This document shows positions 28,573 to 36,722 of a DNA stretch of 64,000 nucleotides, in pieces. Origin of the DNA: a virus. A model generated the notes under the pieces. It was not told the origin of the DNA. It saw only the letters and a list, made by a program, of their open reading frames with translations, and made no database searches. The stretch is taken from IMG/VR virus record IMGVR_UViG_3300022743_000002, positions 1-64,000 of that record. One strand, 5' to 3'. The position numbers and the translations under genes are program-made. Each line of letters opens with the position of its first letter. Position 1 is the stretch's first letter.

Positions 28573-30903
28573 TCAGCGCGGCGCCAGGAATACTACAGGC
28601 ATAGACTTTGTAATGTCTGGATTAGAGCCATCGAACTCGCCATTGTTGCCGATAGCCGATTTGATCTGCGTCGGATCAAAAACGACGTACTCAGCGGGGT
28701 AGTCACCGTTCTGGATGTGCCCGTAGCTCAAAATTACACCGTCGTGGCCCTTGGCGGCCAGTTCCTGCGTCCACTTCGCGGCAGCTTCATTGTCACCGCG
28801 GCGCTCGGCGAGCATCAGCCGCTGCTTGTCTTCCAGTGTGGCCTGATACGGGTTCTTTAGGCTCAGGTAGACAGGCATCACGTTGGGTGACGCGCCAGCC
28901 TTGAGGTTGGTGTAGCTGTTGGAGATTTCGGTGTCGTTGGTGAAGTAGAAGCCCTGACCGAGCCAGCCGTTGTCTTTTTTGTTGGCGTGGCCGTGCTTGA
29001 ACTCAGCGAAGTCATCAGCGGTTCCGTGATAAACGATCAACGGCTTACCATTCCCGTCAACCACTTTACTGCCTCGAAACCAGGTCTTGAACTTCGCGGT
29101 TTCGGTTGGATGCTGGAGCGCGGCCGGCTTCGGGGCCAGTCCAGCAGCCACAGCCTGCAACGCCTTCCTGGGGTCTACAAACTCCAATTTGGTGCCCATG
29201 TCGGTGTGACCGACGCGGATCAGGCTCTTGATGTGCGGGCGCACGGCGTGTGACGTGATGCCGAACACCTCGGCGGCCGCTGGAATGAACCACTTGAGCC
29301 CAGATGAGCCAGCTTTCAGGCCTAGCCGATTTAGGTCCATATCCGTGACTTCGCCGCCGGCCATCAACCGATCGCGCATGGCGGCCAGCGCGGTGGCGCG
29401 ATCGGCCTTGTTTTTGGCGGAACTCTCGCGGTTCGATAGCCACTGCTTGCCCTGCGCCGCAGCATCCTCCGGCTTCGCGTGGTACGCGCTCAAAATATCT
29501 TTGCCCGGGAGCTCGACCGCGTAGTGGCCAGCGATTAGCCCTTTGCCGCGCGACCAGGTTGTGCCCTCGGGGAAATCGGACAGCAGGTGGTCGTGCTCGT
29601 GCTCGCCCGCGGGCTCGGTGTGCTGGAGCTCGTCGGCGAACATATCTGGCGTGTGAGTTACCGCGTCCTTGCCGTTCAGCGGGCTCGGCCCCATCGGTTT
29701 GCCGCTCATGGGGCCGCCAAATAGGCTCATTTGCCCGGGCGTAGCATGCGGGCGCGCAGATCGACCCTGATACCCAGCGACGTTCACCAGACGACCGCCA
29801 CGCAGGTACGGGCCAACATGGGATTTGAAGAACAAGACCATGCTCTTGGCGATGGTGGCGCCGCCGGCCGTACCTCGGCTTTCCACGCCGTTGTCGTCGT
29901 TGAACTTCTTGGCGACCTTGATCAACTCCATCGCCGGCATGCCGATCTTGATGATGGGTAGCTGCTTGCCTTCGAGCGCAGCGACGGCCCAGCGGTGGTG
30001 ACCGTCGAGCACGCGATTGTCGGACGACACCAGAATGCGGGTTTTGGCGTCGTACCGGCCCGCCCGCGTCTCGTCCGTCAGGTAGTCCATATTGGCGGCG
30101 TTGTAGGTGCCCTGGGTCGGCTTCAGTTCGGACGGGTTCACCGTGGCCTCGGTCACGGAAACACCTGACTCACGCAGCCCGTTCAAGAACTTTTCTTTCA
30201 CGCCGCTCGGAACCTGGGGCATGTCATCCCGGCGGATGCCAAGCGACGGCTTGAACATTTCCGCGTACTGCTGGTGCCGCTGGCGCTTGTCTTCGTGGGC
30301 CTGCACCACAGTTCCATCGGAGCGGGTGTAGGTATCGACGTGGGCCTTCAGCAGCAGCGCCTTGATCATGGCAGGCTTGTCGATCGTGGCGCGCACCTTG
30401 GAAACGAACTCGGCCACCGGCATGGCGGTGATGGGGCCCAGGAAACGCGGGTCGGTGTAGTTGGCCAGAAATGCCTGCTTGGCGTCTTCCTCGCTATCGA
30501 ACCCGGCCATGGCCTTGTCTTCATCGTAGCGGGTCCAGTCGCCATAGGTGTTCTGGTGCACCACGTAGACCATGGGCGCGTCCGGGTTCGGGCCCATGTA
30601 GATATCGACCGGGTCACCATCCACGCCCATGGATCCGACCACCTCGCCGTAGTCGTAGGACATGCGGATTTCCCAGGCCTCGCCGGACCGGTTCACGCCG
30701 CGGCGCACGGATCCCGCCGGATTCTCAATTGCCAGCGTCAGTCCCTGCCATTCGATGCGTGGCTTCTTGTAGGCGCCCTCGCCGGCCTGGGCGGCACTGG
30801 GCTCGCCGGGGTTTCGGCGAACTTCGCCTTCCCCCAGGTCGGCAGGCTTGGCGGCGCCGCTCATTGCCTGTGTGACGGGGTGGGATTTGAGGAAAACGAT
30901 CAC
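28573..30903 (-). CDS. Polyvalent protein: inorganic pyrophosphatase-like, ParB-like and ADP-ribosyltransferase (ART-PolyVal-like) domains
   Basis: 776 aa; DYG..DGDPVD..DEDK; LKPTQ..VLDGHHRW; VYHGT..GFYFT..LKNP..HDGVI..EYVVFDPTQIKS. Confidence 0.85.
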   Translation of the reverse strand: MIVFLKSHPVTQAMSGAAKPADLGEGEVRRNPGEPSAAQAGEGAYKKPRIEWQGLTLAIENPAGSVRRGVNRSGEAWEIRMSYDYGEVVGSMGVDGDPVDIYMGPNPDAPMVYVVHQNTYGDWTRYDEDKAMAGFDSEEDAKQAFLANYTDPRFLGPITAMPVAEFVSKVRATIDKPAMIKALLLKAHVDTYTRSDGTVVQAHEDKRQRHQQYAEMFKPSLGIRRDDMPQVPSGVKEKFLNGLRESGVSVTEATVNPSELKPTQGTYNAANMDYLTDETRAGRYDAKTRILVSSDNRVLDGHHRWAVAALEGKQLPIIKIGMPAMELIKVAKKFNDDNGVESRGTAGGATIAKSMVLFFKSHVGPYLRGGRLVNVAGYQGRSARPHATPGQMSLFGGPMSGKPMGPSPLNGKDAVTHTPDMFADELQHTEPAGEHEHDHLLSDFPEGTTWSRGKGLIAGHYAVELPGKDILSAYHAKPEDAAAQGKQWLSNRESSAKNKADRATALAAMRDRLMAGGEVTDMDLNRLGLKAGSSGLKWFIPAAAEVFGITSHAVRPHIKSLIRVGHTDMGTKLEFVDPRKALQAVAAGLAPKPAALQHPTETAKFKTWFRGSKVVDGNGKPLIVYHGTADDFAEFKHGHANKKDNGWLGQGFYFTNDTEISNSYTNLKAGASPNVMPVYLSLKNPYQATLEDKQRLMLAERRGDNEAAAKWTQELAAKGHDGVILSYGHIQNGDYPAEYVVFDPTQIKSAIGNNGEFDGSNPDITKSMPVVFLAPR

Positions 30904-32060
30904 TTTGGTTCCTTGCGCGGCATGGCCGCCAGCTTGTCACGCATCCATTGCCCGAACTCCACATCGTCACCTGGCCGGTCCTGAATCGTCGGAACCCAGC
31001 GCCCACGGCAATGCGGGTGCACCAGGCCGACTGGCACCTGCCACATCTCCTCGGGCTCGCGCTCCTTGAACACGGACCCCACGCGCTTGCGTGGGCTGGC
31101 GCTTCGCCCAACGTTGGTTTTGCCCGGCCAAATCATGGTCTCCGGGTCCTTGTCCTCGCGGGCGGCGTCCACGACTTCCATGACGCGGCCGTCGATTTTG
31201 CGACAGAACGCACAGGCGTTTTTGTACTGCTCGACACGCTTGACCTTGGTGCCCATGGGTAGAGACGACACGTAGCCGGCGGTCTGTGCTTCGCCGGCCT
31301 CGGTCACGGCGATCCGCCGCCAGTCGCGGTTCAGCGTGCCGAACTGGTCGAGGAGCTTGGTCTCCAGACTCGACGACGGTGCCGGCAGTCCGAGCTCGCG
31401 CTCCGTGACGTGCTCGGCAATGACGCCACGCATGCGGTGCCGGACGTCATTGGCGATGTTGCGGACATTCTCGGCACAGCGGGTTTCAGCGTGAGCCATG
31501 GTAGCGCGCTGTGCGACGGTGCCGCCAAACGCCGCAATGGCCTCAGCGGCCGTGCTCGGCATGGCCGCCAGCAGCACGTCGGCCTGCTTGGCGTCGGCGG
31601 CCTCCATGTTGGCCTGCACGCGCCCCATGAGGCTGGCACGTGTCGACAACCAGTCGGCCTCGGTGCGCATGTCGTCTGCAGGCAGGTAGCGCTGCACCGT
31701 CGCGTCGACGGCAAGCATGTGGTCTTCCAGCGTCCAATCGGACGGCGGGAGGTGTTCGAGGTAGATATGGACCAGAGAGAGCTCGCTTTGCGTCCATCGC
31801 TCCATCATGCCGCCAGGGCGAATGATGCGCTCGCCGGGCTTGTGTCGGACGCCGGCGGTCCAGGCCTGAATCTCGGTGCGCACGGCGTCAAGGCGATCGA
31901 GACCGCGCTGCGTGAAAAGCTCGACCAGGCGACGCAGCAACGGGCTATCCATTGGCGCCCAGATGCCGTCGTCGTGGTCATGCGTGGACTTGCACAGGAA
32001 CTCCAGAGCGTCGTTTGTGACGCGCTCACCAAGTTCAATTAAATCGACGAACAAAGACAT
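30900..32060 (-). CDS. MuF-like head morphogenesis protein
   Basis: 386 aa; RIAVTE, ACAFC and HPHCRG motifs. Confidence 0.8.
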   Translation of the reverse strand: MSLFVDLIELGERVTNDALEFLCKSTHDHDDGIWAPMDSPLLRRLVELFTQRGLDRLDAVRTEIQAWTAGVRHKPGERIIRPGGMMERWTQSELSLVHIYLEHLPPSDWTLEDHMLAVDATVQRYLPADDMRTEADWLSTRASLMGRVQANMEAADAKQADVLLAAMPSTAAEAIAAFGGTVAQRATMAHAETRCAENVRNIANDVRHRMRGVIAEHVTERELGLPAPSSSLETKLLDQFGTLNRDWRRIAVTEAGEAQTAGYVSSLPMGTKVKRVEQYKNACAFCRKIDGRVMEVVDAAREDKDPETMIWPGKTNVGRSASPRKRVGSVFKEREPEEMWQVPVGLVHPHCRGRWVPTIQDRPGDDVEFGQWMRDKLAAMPRKEPK

Positions 32061-32066
32061 GCTGGC

Positions 32067-32082
32067 AGTATGCGATCACGAC
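32067..32082 (-). promoter_or_regulatory. Late-promoter motif for MuF
   Basis: GTCGTGAT-CG-CATACT-N6-ATG. Confidence 0.8.
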
Positions 32083-32252
32083 GAAAAGCCGGAGCGGTTT
32101 CCAGCCCCGGCGATCCGGCGCGACCCTGGCACGGCGCGTAAACGCCGGAAAGGAACCGACCTCCAACCCTCAATGGACGTCGGCGCCATGTCGCGCTGCG
32201 GCCTTTATATCCCGAATGAACCGCAAACGGTCACGCTCAAGCCAACACTAAC
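32083..32252 (-). ncRNA. Candidate structured ncRNA B (~170 nt, late promoter)
   Basis: Own copy of the promoter motif with no ATG at +1; nested stems; ends in a GC hairpin plus T4. Confidence 0.55.
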
Positions 32253-32258
32253 AATGGC

Positions 32259-32274
32259 AGTGTGCAGTCACGAC
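32259..32274 (-). promoter_or_regulatory. Late-promoter motif with no downstream start codon
   Basis: GTCGTGAC-TG-CACACT-N6-G. Confidence 0.7.
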
Positions 32275-32300
32275 AAAAAAACCCGGCACAAGGCCGGGTT
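32275..32300 (-). terminator. Rho-independent terminator
   Basis: AACCCGGC-CTTGT-GCCGGGTT followed by a T run. Confidence 0.85.
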
Positions 32301-32305
32301 AAAAG

Positions 32306-32570
32306 CTCCGACCCAGGGAGGAAAGGCCGGCCACTTGCGTGGGGGTTGATGGCGGCCGAAGGTGATCACCCTGCTATCGACCGGGAACCCCCAGCCGTTC
32401 GGCATCTTCGCCATCAAGAATGAGACCTTACCACTGGCTGCATCCGCGTTTAAGTAGATACACCATAATCTCATACTTGATGACCCTGCAAGCAGGCATC
32501 AAGGGCACCTAACGGGTACCAGTCGACGTGATTAAGTGCCGTCGCACGGAGTTGTCTACTCAGGTCCGAA
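32306..32570 (-). ncRNA. Candidate structured ncRNA A (~265 nt)
   Basis: Multiple 8-12 bp stems and an imperfect 5'/3' closing stem, directly followed by a terminator; no credible ORF. Confidence 0.55.
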
Positions 32571-32592
32571 AACTAATTCTAATCACAAATAA

Positions 32593-33189
32593 CTATATTT
32601 GTGCAATGCCGCGCAAATATATTTCATCAAAAATAGCATCGAGTACGGGGTGACGCTGGCTCATGGCCGTTACCACCTGGCGCGCATCGCTGTAATACTT
32701 GCGCTTTCTGTCTGCGCCCCAAGCCGGTGGCATAACCAGCAGGTCCCGCAAGTTAGCAGTCTTGTCTGCCACCTTCACGGCGGCCGCCCTGGGGCTCATG
32801 GTTTGCGCGTGGGCTACCTGCATCGCCAGCTTGTCTTCGGGCTTCACGTCTTCGTTCGTGAGCTCCGCCACGGCGTCGGCAACGTCATGACCAAATTCAG
32901 CCACCAGGTTTTCGTGGCTGACGCCGCAGTCCTCAATGGTGTCGTGCAGCAGAGCCGTGATCAGCGTGGCGTCATCGGTGACGCCAGCCTCATCGTGCAG
33001 GATTCGGGCGACTGCGCGCGGGTGTTCGATGTAGGGAACCTTGGGCGCGCCAGGCTGGCCCTTGCGGTACTGGCCGGTGTGGGCCCGCTCCGCGAACTTG
33101 TCGGCGCGCCTGACGTGAGGGGAAACGTAAACGCCATTGCGGCGGGTATGGCCCGCCACATGAACCGTTGATTTGAACAAGAGGATCAC
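32593..33189 (-). CDS. HD-domain (p)ppGpp hydrolase-like protein (SAH/Mesh1 family)
   Basis: AHTGQYRK, PYIEHP, ALLHDTIED, VKVADKTANLRD; N-terminal ILLFK|S tag. Confidence 0.88.
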   Translation of the reverse strand: MILLFKSTVHVAGHTRRNGVYVSPHVRRADKFAERAHTGQYRKGQPGAPKVPYIEHPRAVARILHDEAGVTDDATLITALLHDTIEDCGVSHENLVAEFGHDVADAVAELTNEDVKPEDKLAMQVAHAQTMSPRAAAVKVADKTANLRDLLVMPPAWGADRKRKYYSDARQVVTAMSQRHPVLDAIFDEIYLRGIAQI

Positions 33190-33398: not shown

Positions 33399-34980
33399 GC
33401 CCCTTCAAATTCCACAAGATCATTCTAGGCGTTGGCATAGATTTAGTCAAATTTGATGATTCATTCTGTTGTTGTTTCTCACCAGCCTTAGCTTTCTCCC
33501 AGGCATCACCGTAGAGAGACTCCTGCTCTTTCATGGCGGCGGCGTGCGTCTCACGGTCCTTGGCGTCCCATTTGCTTGTATCTGAGCCAACGCCATTCTC
33601 GCGATATTTACCTTCTATTGATCGCGTTGTCTCGTATGGCTTGTGGCCTTTTTCCTTGGCCAGCGTCATTGGCTTCACGTGCACCTGCATCTCGGCGAGC
33701 ATGCCGTTGGGTAGCCGCATGATCATGTTGATATCGCGGTAGCCGCCCGGCAATGGCTTGACCAGGTTGTTCTTGGGCTTCTGCGCCAGCTCGATGCCGG
33801 CCGCCTTGAGCTCGGCGAGCACCTTCGGGATTTGGGTGACGCCAGGCACTGCGATTGTGGCGCGCACCATGTCGCGCAGCTGCGACCAGTCGCCGTCGTA
33901 GTCCTGGGCGACCTTCTCCTTGGCGCGCTTCTCGCCCTTGAGCGGGCCCATGAACAGGTAGCCGCGATCGTCGTCCCAGTGCTCGGGCAGCATGTAGTCG
34001 GTGTCGGACAGGTCGGCCGGATTGCGGCCTTCCTTCTCGGCGTTGATCTTCTCCTCGTGCTGGGCGTGGTCCAGCGACTGCGGGCGCTTGCCGGTCACCA
34101 GACCAAGATTCTGCGCGACCTTGCTGAGCATATCGCTGTACTGCTTCAGGCCTTCCTCGCCCTTGGACTTCAGTTCATCCCATGACTGGACAGGCTGATT
34201 GACCTTGGTCGGCAGCTTATCGAGCTCTGAGGTATCGAATAGCGCGCGAGCGATCCCCTCGGCGCCGTCGGGGGCCGGCTTTGGCGTTCCCGGCGCGTCT
34301 ACCTGGTTGGGTTGCGTCTCCTGGTGCGGACTCGCGTCCGGCTTACCTTCGCCGCCCCAGTGGTGGGTAATTTTGTCATGCGTTACAAGGTGTTGGCCAC
34401 CGGCGCTGTCCCGGACACGCACGCCGTCCTTGCCGGATGCCGTTACCTCGCCGTGCCCCTTGTGCTCGCCATTGGCAAAGCCGACGTGCTGGCCGCGCTG
34501 GGCCGGCGGGCTACCCTGGTCAGTGCTGACCCACTTGGTAGTTTGAACGCCATTCTTATCAGTGATTACCTTCTTTTGCAGACCGGGTGCACCAGCGTAG
34601 GTTCCCGGCGCTGACGCCTTCATAAATAGCATGACGGGCCGCGTGTGCCCCATTGATTTAGCGACCATTGGGTCTTCCTTGGATTCGTTTGGTATTGCCA
34701 CAAATCGACGCCGGCCGGACTTGTCCTCGACCAGCATGCCATCCTCTCCTTGATCGACGACGGCGTATTTTTGCAGGGCCCGGGTCTTGTGACCAAGGAC
34801 CTTGTCCCATCGGACCGGGTGATGGCCGCCGTCAATCTCGACGGTTACGCCGTGCTTTCCGTGCGCCTTGACCAAGCCGGTGCGCGGTTGTCCGCGGTGG
34901 TGCACATACAGATGGTCGCCCACCTCGACGTCGTGGCGCGGCTCCGGCTCCGGGCGCGGCTTAGGCTTCTGGTAGGTCAT
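33382..34980 (-). CDS. RelA/SpoT-type small alarmone synthetase domain protein with N-terminal SH3/KOW-like modules
   Basis: GPLKGEKRAKEK, LRDMVRAT, GGYRDIN and AEMQVH synthetase motifs. Confidence 0.85.
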   Translation of the reverse strand: MTYQKPKPRPEPEPRHDVEVGDHLYVHHRGQPRTGLVKAHGKHGVTVEIDGGHHPVRWDKVLGHKTRALQKYAVVDQGEDGMLVEDKSGRRRFVAIPNESKEDPMVAKSMGHTRPVMLFMKASAPGTYAGAPGLQKKVITDKNGVQTTKWVSTDQGSPPAQRGQHVGFANGEHKGHGEVTASGKDGVRVRDSAGGQHLVTHDKITHHWGGEGKPDASPHQETQPNQVDAPGTPKPAPDGAEGIARALFDTSELDKLPTKVNQPVQSWDELKSKGEEGLKQYSDMLSKVAQNLGLVTGKRPQSLDHAQHEEKINAEKEGRNPADLSDTDYMLPEHWDDDRGYLFMGPLKGEKRAKEKVAQDYDGDWSQLRDMVRATIAVPGVTQIPKVLAELKAAGIELAQKPKNNLVKPLPGGYRDINMIMRLPNGMLAEMQVHVKPMTLAKEKGHKPYETTRSIEGKYRENGVGSDTSKWDAKDRETHAAAMKEQESLYGDAWEKAKAGEKQQQNESSNLTKSMPTPRMILWNLKGRENGN

Positions 34981-36722
34981 GATTGAATTCTGAACACCGG
35001 CAGGCCAAACGACTTGGCTATGTCCTGCTGATCATCTCCGGGCCTCTCCGTAGCCCCAGCATCATCGGGCGCCCCGAAGTCTTGCCCGCCCTGATCGTCA
35101 CCAAAATCCTGATCGCCGCCGCCGTCATCGCCGTCATCGGTCGACTGCCCAGGCTCAGCGCCAGGCTGGCCGTAGTCCTCTTGCTGCGGCATTGCCTCTT
35201 GTTGCCAGGCGCCAACCAGCGAGGGATTCAATGGAGCGTCACCCCACTTACCGTCGGCCTTGTCGACGCCGTCCTCGGCTCGGATCTCGTTGACGGTGCG
35301 CGTCATTTTTTTGCGCTCCCAGATCGTCTTTTCGTCTTCCTCGTCCAGGCCGGTGAACTGGAATTCGTACTTGTCACTGAACTCGCCAATGACGTACTCG
35401 CTCAGCGTGGACTCGAAATAGCTCAGCAGGGGGCGCAGGCCCTTGTCTTTGCTGTTGACGATCTTCTCCTCGGTGTCGTCTCCGCTCAGCGATGACGTTC
35501 CGGACGTGAAGCTCTCAAAATTGATTTCCTCGGGCGCAATGCCGTAGATCGCGCAGATGATGGATGACAAGAACGTCATCCACTTGGCGAACATGATTTC
35601 GTTGGCGGCGTTACCGAATTCCGTGAAGTCGGCTTTCGACTCCTGATCCTTGGACACCATGACGGGCAGCGTCCAGGCGTTATTGACGCCCTTGACCATG
35701 CCGTTCCAGTAGCGCTTAAAGGCGGCAACATCCTCGTCGCTGTAGTTTCCGTACAGGTTCAGCATGCCCTTGGGTATGGCGTTGCTGTCGAAAAATTTGG
35801 TGTTGTAGGTGAAGGCGTTCAGAAAGCCCGTCACCACGCGGATAAGCAGTTCCGTCTCGGACAGTCCGTAGCCGCCAGCAAGCACGTCGGTGCGTGGGTT
35901 GCGCGGCACATACACCAGGTCGTCATAGGTGTAGGCGCTGCGGATCTGGCCTTGCACGACCTGGAGGGCGAAAATCTCGTCTTCGCCTTGGTAGCCGTCT
36001 TCGCTGCACAACCGAATGGTGGCTCCGTCGACGGCGTACATGCCGTCCAGGCCGAGCGACTTGTCGCGCTTCCACTCGGTCTCAATCGGTGCGCTGTCCA
36101 TGGTGAGGCTGTCGCGCACCAGCTTCATCATGAAGTTTTGGAAGTTGTCGCGCTTCAGGCGCAGGCGCTGGCGGGGCTTGGTCTCCCAGCCGCTGTTGGT
36201 CACGAATGACTCCAGCAGCTTAATGGTGGCCTTTTCGTTTTCGTCGATGTTCTCCAGCTTTTCCTTGCTGGCGATCCTGAAACCCGACCCCTTGCCACCC
36301 TTCTGCGGCCGGCAAAACCTGGCCACCTGGCGCTGGCGCGTCATTATGACGGCGTTCAAAATCGGCGTTTGGTCCACCATGGCGCGCATGGCATCAAACG
36401 TGAATTGGCCGGGTCGCTCGAACCAGTCGCCGTTGATGTTGATCTGCAGGTCGTCCAGCCAGACCGACTGCATGCCGGGCTTCTTGTCTTTGATGGCATT
36501 CGACGGGAACGGGATGACGTTCTGCTTTTGCAGCGACTTCGCCATGGCCTGATCGTCCAGGTCACGGTTGATGTAGTCAATGATGGGCTGAATGTTCGCC
36601 GCCGGTATCAGGTCCGACAACGCCTTGGGCATGCTGGATTTTTGAAGCTCCGCCATGGCTTCAGTCCGCTCGTCGGCGGGCGCACGTGGATCAGCGAGTA
36701 TGGCGCGGGCAGCATCAGTCAT
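34977..36722 (-). CDS. Portal protein
   Basis: 581 aa; DGATIRL, GYGLSETE, PKGML, ICAIYGIAPEEIN, KGLRPLL and TVNEIRA portal motifs. Confidence 0.92.
   Translation of the reverse strand: MTDAARAILADPRAPADERTEAMAELQKSSMPKALSDLIPAANIQPIIDYINRDLDDQAMAKSLQKQNVIPFPSNAIKDKKPGMQSVWLDDLQININGDWFERPGQFTFDAMRAMVDQTPILNAVIMTRQRQVARFCRPQKGGKGSGFRIASKEKLENIDENEKATIKLLESFVTNSGWETKPRQRLRLKRDNFQNFMMKLVRDSLTMDSAPIETEWKRDKSLGLDGMYAVDGATIRLCSEDGYQGEDEIFALQVVQGQIRSAYTYDDLVYVPRNPRTDVLAGGYGLSETELLIRVVTGFLNAFTYNTKFFDSNAIPKGMLNLYGNYSDEDVAAFKRYWNGMVKGVNNAWTLPVMVSKDQESKADFTEFGNAANEIMFAKWMTFLSSIICAIYGIAPEEINFESFTSGTSSLSGDDTEEKIVNSKDKGLRPLLSYFESTLSEYVIGEFSDKYEFQFTGLDEEDEKTIWERKKMTRTVNEIRAEDGVDKADGKWGDAPLNPSLVGAWQQEAMPQQEDYGQPGAEPGQSTDDGDDGGGDQDFGDDQGGQDFGAPDDAGATERPGDDQQDIAKSFGLPVFRIQS

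What the first reader, a model, noticed from the sequence alone, without database searches (positions are those of the whole stretch)
32306..32570. Unrecognised ~265 nt structured ncRNA A between hydrolase and MuF
Seen (plus coordinates): pairings 32532-32540/32504-32512 (9 bp), hairpin 32476-32503, 32555-32562/32451-32458, and 32346-32354/32409-32417 enclosing GCCGAA/TTCGGC. An imperfect closing stem 32561-32570/32306-32315 is followed by a strong terminator. The minus-strand RNA has TTTCCTCCCT (anti-SD-like) near its 3' end and a tRNA-5'-half-like stretch GCGGATGCAGCCAGTGGTAAGG. Inference: a large phage ncRNA, perhaps an antitoxin or decoy for the adjacent alarmone module, or an SD-blocking sRNA. 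Function is speculative.
Basis: partly seen in the sequence, partly recalled or inferred. Interest (0 to 1): 0.75.

Follow-up and report, generated by a model that had tools for sequence, protein, structure and literature searches.

The report
Phage RNA gene with anti-SD tail
The flagged stretch is a real, roughly 300-base non-coding RNA gene of a freshwater phage; its last 60 bases are a shortened copy of a known bacterial regulatory RNA that probably blocks ribosome-binding sites, and its front part is a folded domain not yet described.

Summary
Real feature, partly known. On the minus strand a sigma-70-type promoter overlaps the stop codon of the HD hydrolase gene. It is followed by about 297 nt of ORF-less, hairpin-rich sequence and a strong intrinsic terminator (about 32570 to 32273).

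Ten related IMG/VR phage contigs keep the same promoter at the same place. What follows is a hypervariable RNA cassette of 280 to 1800 nt. In relatives it carries tRNAs, a permuted tmRNA (Rfam 93-106 bits) and shuffled hairpin modules. The window holds the minimal version.

Its 3' end has a hairpin whose loop reads UUUCCUCCCUG, then a U-rich spacer, a terminator and U7. It scores 40.5 bits against Rfam anti-hemB (cut-off 49.5). The equivalent module in relative L115 scores 54.7 and nearly matches a chromosomal Rubrivivax copy. The tail is therefore a truncated, host-derived, Hfq-type anti-Shine-Dalgarno sRNA.

The 5' 230 nt has no Rfam match. Its hairpins are kept by compensatory changes in 3 to 9 other cassettes.

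The tRNA-half and alarmone-antitoxin ideas find no support. No RNA-seq data exist, and the targets are unknown.

The parts
32576..32605 (-). Sigma-70-type promoter: -35 TGCACA (32605..32600), 18-nt spacer, -10 TAGAAT (32581..32576). The -35 lies in the last codons of the HD gene; the -10 lies just after its TAG stop (32595..32593).
   Evidence: Consensus scan. The -10 is kept in 10 related cassettes as TAGAAT, TATAGT, TATGAT or TAGGAT: positions 1, 2 and 6 never change, and it lies outside the coding sequence.
32273..32570 (-). Predicted primary transcript 'RNA A', about 297 nt. The 5' end is inferred from the -10 position; the 3' end is the U-tract.
   Evidence: No conserved ORF: the 68-aa frame 32474..32268 has no Pfam-style family hit in PHROGs, and the homologues carry frame-breaking indels.
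32527..32537 (-). M1: conserved A/U-rich motif ACUUAAUCACG. Pairing partner not established.
   Evidence: Identical 11-mer in L002; ACUUAAUAAC in L030.
32504..32520 (-). M2 hairpin GGUACC-CGUUA-GGUGCC.
   Evidence: Four copies in WIN, L002 and L030 (two copies), with compensatory changes at pairs 3 and 4. Ensemble probability 0.96-1.0.
32476..32503 (-). M3 hairpin: strand A1 CUUGAUG, upper stem CCUG-CUUG-CAGG, strand A' CAUCAAG.
   Evidence: Present in 8 cassettes with covariation.
32420..32474 (-). PX stem (AUGAGAU...GUCUCAU) with a variable insert. The insert contains the 'tRNA-half-like' stretch.
   Evidence: The basal stem is kept with different sequences in L002, L030 and L121. Insert length is 39-98 nt across cassettes.
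32346..32417 (-). M4 module: P1 UUGAUGGCG/CGCCAUCAA (strands A2/A2'), P2 GCCGAA/UUCGGC, P3 GGCUGGG-GGUU-CCCGGUC, P4 GGGU-GAUC-ACCU.
   Evidence: RNAalifold on 3 sequences gives 23 pairs, 2 of them compensatory. The P3 hairpin is also in L121. CM R1 finds the full module only in WIN, L112 (=L002) and L030.
32331..32342 (-). P5 mini-hairpin CCAC-GCAA-GUGG.
   Evidence: L115 has GCAC-UCAC-GUGC: the closing pair is swapped C-G to G-C.
32308..32330 (-). P6 hairpin CCGGCC/GGUCGG presenting the loop UUUCCUCCCUG (32324..32314), the anti-Shine-Dalgarno seed.
   Evidence: Rfam anti-hemB alignment. L115 has stem CCUGCU/AGCAGG, with two compensatory pairs. A metagenomic variant changes U32311 to C, turning G.U into G-C. 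Loop bases are unpaired with probability 0.7-0.99.
32273..32307 (-). U-rich spacer (GAGCUUUUAA), intrinsic terminator hairpin 32300..32280 and U7 tail 32279..32273.
   Evidence: Terminator scan. The same arrangement ends the cassettes of L121, L115, L116, L118 and L125.
32268..32274 (-). GTCGTGA motif (putative late-promoter element). It marks the 3' border of the cassette and the start of the next unit ('RNA B').
   Evidence: The motif lies 15-16 nt before the ATG of six minus-strand genes. It directly follows the terminator in all related cassettes.

Best explanation
RNA A is a non-coding RNA gene on the minus strand. Host RNA polymerase probably transcribes it from a conserved sigma-70 promoter that overlaps the end of the HD hydrolase gene, and a strong intrinsic terminator stops it after about 297 nt.

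It is the minimal version of a hypervariable RNA cassette that related freshwater Burkholderiales phages carry at this position. In those phages the cassette is loaded with tRNAs, a permuted tmRNA and other modules.

The RNA has two parts.
1. A phage-specific 5' domain of hairpins. These are a 5' stem-loop, M2, and a conserved triad M3-PX-M4 built on repeated complementary strands CUUGAUG/CAUCAAG.
2. A 3' tail that is a shortened, host-derived homologue of the Hfq-binding sRNA anti-hemB/ncS04. It has a hairpin whose loop reads UUUCCUCCCUG, a U-rich spacer, a terminator hairpin and a U7 tail.

Most likely mechanism: the tail acts in trans, either as part of the full transcript or after nuclease processing. 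With Hfq, its CU-rich loop pairs with G-rich Shine-Dalgarno regions and blocks translation initiation on selected host or phage mRNAs. The 5' domain would then give stability, provide processing sites or act as a scaffold.

Shown here: the anatomy, conservation, covariation and family scores. Inferred: transcription, Hfq binding, RBS occlusion and the role of the 5' domain.
For: Promoter and terminator:
- Both were found by consensus scans.
- The -10 lies outside coding sequence and keeps T1, A2 and T6 in 10 cassettes.

Same locus in relatives:
- It holds bona fide RNA genes: tmRNA_permuted at 104, 93 and 106 bits, and tRNAs.

Hairpins kept by compensatory changes:
- M3 in 8 cassettes.
- M4.
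- M2, PX, P3, P5 and P6.
- G.U pairs fix the strand.

The 3' tail:
- It scores 40.5 bits, E 7e-8, against anti-hemB over the full model length.
- The L115 tail scores 54.7 bits, above the 49.5 cut-off.
- Chromosomal copies in Rubrivivax (62 bits) and Aquincola (53.6 bits) share the loop and, with L115, almost the whole sequence.
- A CU-rich motif before the terminator is also present in L121 and L192, and in C-rich form in L017.
- The loop is predicted to be unpaired.

Literature:
- anti-hemB = ncS04 is a Northern-confirmed sRNA for which Hfq binding has been reported.
- CU-rich unpaired stretches of such Burkholderia sRNAs are predicted to cover ribosome-binding sites (PMC5688073).
- CCUCCUCCC loops are regarded as anti-SD motifs (PMC4615179).
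Against: - No expression data exist: no RNA run holds the phage.
- The window's tail is below the Rfam cut-off and lacks the family's middle hairpin.
- No convincing target was found in the phage. The best duplexes are ordinary G-rich sites, and a 7-nt match at the HD RBS is within chance. The host genome is unknown.
- The function of anti-hemB itself is unknown.
- The 230-nt 5' domain is conserved, yet this model does not explain it.
- The full M4 module has only three known copies, so the statistics are weak.
Confidence: 0.5

Rival explanations
1. Residual leader and trailer of a phage stable-RNA operon. The cassette exists to express tRNAs and tmRNA. This phage has lost the cargo. What remains (M2, the M3-PX-M4 triad, the terminator region) are processing or stability elements, for example long helices cut by RNase III or RNase E. 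They have no trans-acting function of their own.
For: - The A1-A'-PX-A2 triad is present in all 9 cassettes whatever their cargo. In L013/L116 the A2 strand directly precedes tRNA-Met.
- The A':A2 plus PX helix is about 16 bp long and is predicted with probability about 1.
- Cassette sizes range from 280 to 1800 nt, and the modules are shuffled.
Against: - The modules in the window are intact and still covary rather than decay.
- The CU-rich tail is conserved in five cassettes and derives from a free-standing host sRNA.
- L113 keeps a cassette of similar length with different content, which suggests selection for some RNA product even without a tRNA.
Confidence: 0.25
2. Structured 3' UTR and insulator of the toxin/antidote operon. 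Transcripts of the alarmone synthetase, 70-aa ORF and HD genes read through into RNA A, because no terminator lies between them. The hairpins protect the antidote mRNA from 3' exonucleases. The terminator shields the late head genes from early transcription.
For: - No terminator-like site lies between the HD stop (32593) and 32300.
- The strong terminator is immediately followed by the GTCGTGA late motif in every relative.
Against: - A dedicated, conserved -10 element sits after the HD stop codon.
- The triad and the CU-rich tail also occur in L192 behind a holin-like gene, with their own promoter-like sequence and no HD or toxin genes in the stretch read.
- In relatives the same position encodes tRNAs and tmRNA, which are not UTR elements.
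Confidence: 0.12
3. Sensor, decoy or antitoxin RNA for the neighbouring alarmone module. The M4 domain binds (p)ppApp/(p)ppGpp or the toxin itself, or the RNA mimics a tRNA target.
For: - The position directly after the HD hydrolase is conserved in about 10 related contigs.
- M4 has a strongly conserved internal sequence.
Against: - No riboswitch family matches at E up to 10.
- The full M4 module is in only 3 cassettes, while the HD genes are in all.
- In the L192 stretch read, the triad and tail occur without the alarmone genes.
- No tRNA or tRNA-like call is made in the window, and there is no tandem repeat array.
Confidence: 0.05
4. Not a functional RNA. It is GC-rich intergenic filler whose hairpins arise by chance, or it holds a small protein gene (68-aa ORF 32474..32268).
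For: - The folding z-score is equal on both strands.
- An ATG-started 68-codon frame exists.
Against: - Compensatory changes occur in several helices.
- The promoter and terminator are conserved.
- There is an Rfam near-hit.
- The ORF has no family match.
- The homologues have 3-, 5- and 7-nt indels and no matching ORF.
Confidence: 0.05

Closest known systems
anti-hemB (Rfam RF02837; ncS04 of Burkholderia cenocepacia), a chromosomal Hfq-binding sRNA of Burkholderiales
   Same: - The first hairpin has an almost identical CU-rich loop (UUUCCUCCCUG against the consensus UUCUCCUCCCUGA).
- It has a U-rich spacer, a Rho-independent terminator and a long U tail.
- The full-length model alignment gives E 7e-8.
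- The counterpart in relative L115 passes the cut-off and nearly equals a Rubrivivax chromosomal copy.
   Different: - The window copy scores 40.5 bits, below the 49.5 cut-off.
- It lacks the middle hairpin.
- It has no promoter of its own and forms the last 60 nt of a ~297-nt phage transcript.
- It sits in the head-gene region of a phage, not upstream of hemB.
Anti-SD-loop sRNAs: Betaproteobacteria 'toxic' double-hairpin sRNAs (RF02278) and the cuckoo/CcsR family (PMC4615179)
   Same: A CCUCC(U)CCC-type motif sits in an unpaired loop, and the predicted action is occlusion of ribosome-binding sites.
   Different: There is only one such loop. The RF02278 score is 19.9 bits against a cut-off of 50. 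The large 5' domain is absent from those families.
sRNAs cut from the 3' end of longer transcripts, such as the tRNA 3' external spacer sRNA 3'ETS-leuZ and 3'-UTR-derived Hfq sRNAs of enterobacteria (named from my own knowledge)
   Same: The seed and terminator lie at the 3' end of a longer stable-RNA transcript. In relatives they sit right behind tRNA, tmRNA or tRNA-like elements.
   Different: Processing is not shown here, and the window cassette holds no tRNA.
Large phage-borne structured RNAs found next to tRNAs (GOLLD, ROOL) and the small stable RNAs of the phage T4 tRNA region (named from my own knowledge)
   Same: These are phage-encoded, ORF-less structured RNAs in a tRNA/tmRNA neighbourhood, with GNRA-type loops and unknown function.
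   Different: No Rfam match to GOLLD or ROOL. RNA A is much smaller. Its modules are shuffled between relatives, which argues for independent hairpins rather than one globular fold.
Phage-encoded two-piece (permuted) tmRNA genes, e.g. in a marine OM43 methylophage (PMC9004378)
   Same: Relatives L013, L017 and L115 carry a permuted tmRNA in the same cassette.
   Different: The window has no tmRNA or tRNA.

Membership tests
anti-hemB sRNA (Rfam RF02837) | Covariance-model score at or above the curated gathering score (49.5 bits) | tested here: not met
   The window at 32333..32273 scores 40.5 bits, E 7e-8. The homologous module in relative L115 scores 54.7 bits. Host-type chromosomes score 62 and 53.6 bits.
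anti-hemB sRNA (Rfam RF02837) | First hairpin presenting the CU-rich loop (consensus UUCUCCUCCCUGA) | tested here: met
   P6 at 32330..32308 has the loop UUUCCUCCCUG. The stem covaries with L115.
anti-hemB sRNA (Rfam RF02837) | Middle hairpin between the seed hairpin and the terminator | tested here: not met
   The model's 18-nt element aligns to 0 nt in the window. It is present in L115 and in the Rubrivivax and Aquincola copies.
anti-hemB sRNA (Rfam RF02837) | Rho-independent terminator with a long U tail | tested here: met
   8-bp stem plus U7.
anti-hemB sRNA (Rfam RF02837) | Free-standing transcript of about 80-105 nt with its own promoter | tested here: inconclusive
   No promoter-like site lies directly upstream of P5/P6. 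The only one found starts the 297-nt RNA. Transcript ends were not measurable.
anti-hemB sRNA (Rfam RF02837) | Binds Hfq (reported for ncS04, PMC5688073) | not testable with these tools
   Only the sequence hallmarks are present: a U-rich spacer, a terminator and a U7 tail.
Betaproteobacteria toxic sRNA (RF02278) / cuckoo RNAs | Two or more adjacent hairpins that each carry a CCUCCUCCC-type loop; model score at or above 50 bits | tested here: not met
   19.9 bits, with a single CU-rich loop.
tRNA / tRNA-like element | Cloverleaf detected by ARAGORN or the Rfam tRNA model | tested here: not met
   No call in the window. The GCGGAUGCAGCC stretch lies in the non-conserved PX insert.
tmRNA (standard or permuted) | Match to RF00023, RF01850 or RF04321 | tested here: not met
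   None in the window at E up to 10. It is present in relatives L013, L017 and L115.
Riboswitches for alarmones/nucleotides (ykkC subtypes and others in Rfam) | Match to the family covariance model | tested here: not met
   No such family among 12 sub-threshold hits at E up to 10.
Type III antitoxin RNA (ToxI-like) | Tandem array of short direct repeats | tested here: not met
   Tandem Repeats Finder returns 0 rows for 32000-32700.

The most novel reading that the evidence does not exclude
RNA A is the minimal form of an undescribed phage 'RNA cassette platform'. The platform has a fixed promoter and a switchable three- or four-strand junction (A1 CUUGAUG / A' CAUCAAG / A2 CUUGAUGG / A2'). This junction can fold either as tandem hairpins or as one long helix. 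Its PX arm and flanks accept exchangeable cargo RNAs: tRNAs, a permuted tmRNA or a captured host anti-SD sRNA. In this phage the six genes behind GTCGTGA motifs have 15-16-nt leaders without a Shine-Dalgarno sequence. The anti-SD tail could therefore selectively depress SD-dependent (host) translation while those late genes escape.
Probability: 0.1. Interest if true: 0.8.

Novelty: new variant of a known kind. Interest (0 to 1): 0.45.

Why it matters
- The finding shows a phage carrying a trimmed copy of a host Hfq-type sRNA (anti-hemB/ncS04) whose cellular role is still unknown. Phage capture suggests that this sRNA controls something worth hijacking, and it offers a compact version for target hunting.
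- It defines a hypervariable RNA-gene cassette in freshwater Burkholderiales phages. The cassette mixes tRNAs, a two-piece tmRNA, a host sRNA and unknown covarying modules behind one conserved promoter.
- The conserved M3-PX-M4 triad, with its two mutually exclusive pairings, is a new RNA motif that can be tested by structure probing.
- The practical impact is modest until a transcript and a target are shown.

Tried and rejected
- **Rfam.** At gathering thresholds the whole window gives no hit.
- **tRNA/tmRNA.** ARAGORN finds none in the window.
- **GenBank phages.** blastn in distant mode with the intergenic region finds no match.
- **M4 core pattern.** An exact-pattern scan finds only L002 and L030 in IMG/VR. 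It finds 0 in GTDB genomes and 0 in metagenome contigs.
- **HD protein as bait.** It gives no close relative in GTDB genomes (at most 43% identity) or in metagenome contigs (at most 47%). The homologue set therefore stays at about 10 IMG/VR contigs.
- **M3 pattern in genomes.** It gives one hit inside a Dehalococcoidia coding region, judged to be chance.
- **A module shared by L017 and L192.** It gives 0 hits in genomes.
- **RNA evidence.** No RNA holder is listed.
- **Laying four DNA runs.** This gave only short contigs. One covers 32267-32352 and then diverges.
- **Target search with the seed.** Exact complement search and a duplex scan of the whole 87.7-kb phage and of the toxin-module start sites found nothing beyond chance.
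- **REP-like dispersed repeat idea.** No other M3-like hairpins occur in the genome.
- **Pairing of M1 with the promoter region or with the AAGAUGCC segment.** It is not conserved in L002 or L030.
- **Coding.** The 68-aa ORF is rejected.
- **Earlier-scan look-ups.** They gave context only.

Full report
**Setting**

The window is the first 64 kb of an 87.75-kb IMG/VR virus record. Around the finding all genes lie on the minus strand:
- a portal gene, 36722..34977;
- a 532-aa ORF and a 70-aa ORF;
- an HD_4 phosphohydrolase, 33189..32593 (Pfam E 4e-13);
- a 532-nt gap;
- a 386-aa ORF, 32060..30900. It has no Pfam hit and only a weak 'minor head protein' PHROG match (E 0.005);
- a polyvalent InPase/ART protein.

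I confirmed only the HD domain.

**Is there an RNA gene?**

On the minus strand a sigma-70-type promoter (TGCACA, 18 nt, TAGAAT; 32605..32576) overlaps the TAG stop of the HD gene. An 8-bp GC-rich hairpin plus U7 (32300..32273) ends the unit. The predicted transcript is about 297 nt (32570..32273).

Rfam at curated thresholds and ARAGORN find nothing in the window. The fold is more stable than that of shuffles (z -3.4), but equally so on both strands. Energy alone therefore proves little.

The stronger evidence is comparative. Using the flanking proteins as bait, I found about ten distinct related IMG/VR contigs. All of them keep the promoter at the HD stop codon. The -10 lies outside the coding sequence and varies only at positions 3-5: TAGAAT, TATAGT, TATGAT or TAGGAT. 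All of them also end the following non-coding stretch with a terminator that is directly followed by the motif GTCGTGA.

In the window that motif sits 15-16 nt before the ATG of six minus-strand genes, which have no Shine-Dalgarno sequence. It is presumably a late-promoter element, as earlier readers suggested.

**What lies between promoter and terminator in relatives**

The stretch measures 280 to about 1800 nt and is mosaic. It contains real RNA genes:
- permuted tmRNA (RF04321) at 103.8, 92.6 and 106.3 bits in L017, L013 and L115;
- tRNA-Met and tRNA-Glu;
- a tRNA with a 34-nt insert in L030.

The locus is therefore a hypervariable RNA-gene cassette. The window holds one of its two shortest versions, with no tRNA or tmRNA.

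**Anatomy of RNA A (minus strand)**

- 5' stem-loop.
- M1, ACUUAAUCACG (32537..32527). The identical 11-mer is in L002.
- M2 hairpin (32520..32504). There are four copies in three cassettes, with compensatory changes at two pairs.
- M3 hairpin (32503..32476).
- PX stem (32474..32420) with a variable insert.
- M4 (32417..32346), made of helices P1 to P4.
- P5 mini-hairpin (32342..32331).
- P6 hairpin (32330..32308), with the loop UUUCCUCCCUG.
- U-rich spacer, terminator and U7.

Covariation:
- M3 is present in 8 cassettes. It shows a U-A to A-U swap, wobble changes and four different upper stems.
- M4 in three sequences gives 23 consensus pairs, 2 of them compensatory.
- The M4 hairpin P3 (GGYYGGG-GGUU-CCYGGYC) is also in L121.
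- PX, P5 and P6 keep their pairing with different sequences.
- Several conserved G.U pairs would be C.A mismatches on the plus strand, which fixes the strand.
- A covariance model of M4 finds the full module only in the window, L002 and L030.

**A structural ambiguity**

M3, PX and M4 are built on four strands:
- A1, CUUGAUG;
- A', CAUCAAG;
- A2, CUUGAUGG;
- A2', CCAUCAA.

The order A1-A'-PX-A2 occurs in all nine cassettes examined. This includes L192, a different phage in which the RNA lies between a holin-like gene and an integrase.

A' can pair with A1, giving the M3 hairpin, or with A2, extending PX into a helix of about 16 bp. A':A2 is perfectly Watson-Crick in 7 of 9 cassettes and changes together in L002 (CAUCAGG with CCUGAUG). 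A1:A' has wobbles or a mismatch in 4 of 9.

The thermodynamic ensemble of the 297-nt RNA puts A':A2-PX at probability about 1. Sequential, co-transcriptional folding would favour the tandem hairpins instead, and P1 (A2:A2') has its own support. I cannot decide between the two; structure probing would.

**The 3' tail is a known kind**

With permissive thresholds, 32333..32273 aligns over the whole anti-hemB model (RF02837) at 40.5 bits, E 7e-8. That is below the 49.5 cut-off because the middle hairpin is missing. It is the only such site in the phage.

The corresponding tail of relative L115 has the middle hairpin and scores 54.7 bits. Chromosomes of Rubrivivax and Aquincola carry copies at 62 and 53.6 bits. 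In Rubrivivax the copy is a free-standing gene of about 90 nt beside a divergent gene that I read as hemB from its translation. The L115 tail is almost identical to that copy. The phage lineage has therefore captured a host sRNA, and the window's copy is a diverged, shortened derivative.

CU-rich tails before the terminator also occur in L121, L192 and, in C-rich form, in L017. A metagenomic contig shares 32267-32352 and then diverges. Its U32311-to-C change turns the P6 G.U pair into G-C. This agrees with a modular tail.

[quoted passage not shown] CU-rich unpaired stretches in such sRNAs are predicted to cover ribosome-binding sites. PMC4615179 describes CCUCCUCCC loops as anti-SD motifs.

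**Mechanism and limits**

The best-supported reading is a phage sRNA gene whose effector is the anti-SD tail, fused to a phage-specific structured domain of unknown role. I found no specific target in the phage. The host genome is unknown, although the beta-type tmRNA in relatives and the Rubrivivax-like sRNA point to Burkholderiales. No RNA-seq run holds the phage.

Rival readings are a cargo-less operon leader and trailer, a 3' UTR and insulator, an alarmone sensor or decoy, and chance or coding sequence. I weigh them in the Rival explanations section. The alarmone link is weakened by L192, by the narrow spread of M4, and by the absence of any riboswitch, tRNA-like or repeat signal.

- Three pairings are conserved: 32476-32503; 32346-54/32409-17 with GCCGAA/UUCGGC; and the terminator.
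- Three are not: 32532-40/32504-12; 32555-62/32451-58; and the closing stem.
- The 'tRNA half' lies in the non-conserved PX insert.

**Verdict**

This is a real ncRNA gene and a new variant of a known kind. It combines a host-derived anti-SD sRNA tail with an undescribed 5' domain, and it is the minimal member of a modular phage RNA cassette. Interest is moderate.

Noticed in passing
window 32076-32274 (minus strand): The next unit ('RNA B') starts at a GTCGTGA motif and ends in a second terminator-like hairpin just before the 386-aa gene. It is conserved in 7 related cassettes, with 49 consensus pairs of which 13 show compensatory changes. An invariant core reads GACCG..GCGG..UCGGGA.AUAAAGGCCGCAG. 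It may be a leader or attenuator of the head genes, or a late ncRNA.
   Followed up: partly
L017:4239-4611, L013:4090-4340, L115:5289-5657: Related phages carry complete permuted (two-piece) tmRNA genes in the same cassette: RF04321 at 93-106 bits, with beta_tmRNA at 85 bits in L115. ARAGORN reads the tag peptide VNANDSTYLVRAAA in L017. tRNA-Met and tRNA-Glu genes lie beside them.
   Followed up: partly
L030:4082-4186: A tRNA-like gene scores 41.9 bits against the Rfam tRNA model but is 105 nt long, with an insert of about 34 nt between the D and T arms. ARAGORN does not call it. It could be an intron-bearing or long-variable-arm tRNA.
   Followed up: no
L017:4745-4820 and L192:6640-6700 (minus): tRNA-like elements with a good T arm (GCAGGUUCGAGUCCUGC or CUCGGUUCGACUCCGAG) and an acceptor-like stem, but no normal anticodon loop. 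They lie directly before the CU-rich tail and terminator.
   Followed up: no
window minus strand: 40811, 36744, 32274, 32082, 21611, 16479, 4387: The GTCGTGA motif lies 15-16 nt upstream of the ATG of six genes with no Shine-Dalgarno sequence in between. This suggests a phage-specific late promoter giving very short-leader mRNAs. The copy at 32274 precedes no ORF.
   Followed up: partly
window 34981-35000 (minus strand, upstream of the 532-aa ORF): The 532-aa (alarmone synthetase-like) ORF starts 6 nt after TTCAGAATTCAATC. This resembles the RNA A promoter's TTAGAATTCA -10 region, so that gene may be expressed as a leaderless mRNA from a similar promoter.
   Followed up: no
L192:6560-7260 (minus strand): In a different phage (40.9-kb contig), an RNA cassette with the same A1-A'-PX-A2 triad and a CAUUCCUCCCUG tail lies between a holin-like membrane protein gene and a tyrosine-integrase-like gene. 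That is where attP sites with RNA-gene fragments are usually found.
   Followed up: partly
window 32361-32372 (minus strand), L002:1383-1394, L030:3828-3839: The P4 tetraloop of M4 is GAUC in the window and UGCA in L002 and L030. Both are self-complementary, so a loop-loop dimer is conceivable. With two independent observations this may be chance.
   Followed up: no
L113:4094-4375: Another relative has a cassette as short as the window's (about 280 nt) but with largely different content. A long stem is closed by CCAUCAAG...CUUGAUGG in the reverse order, and there is no CU-rich tail.
   Followed up: no
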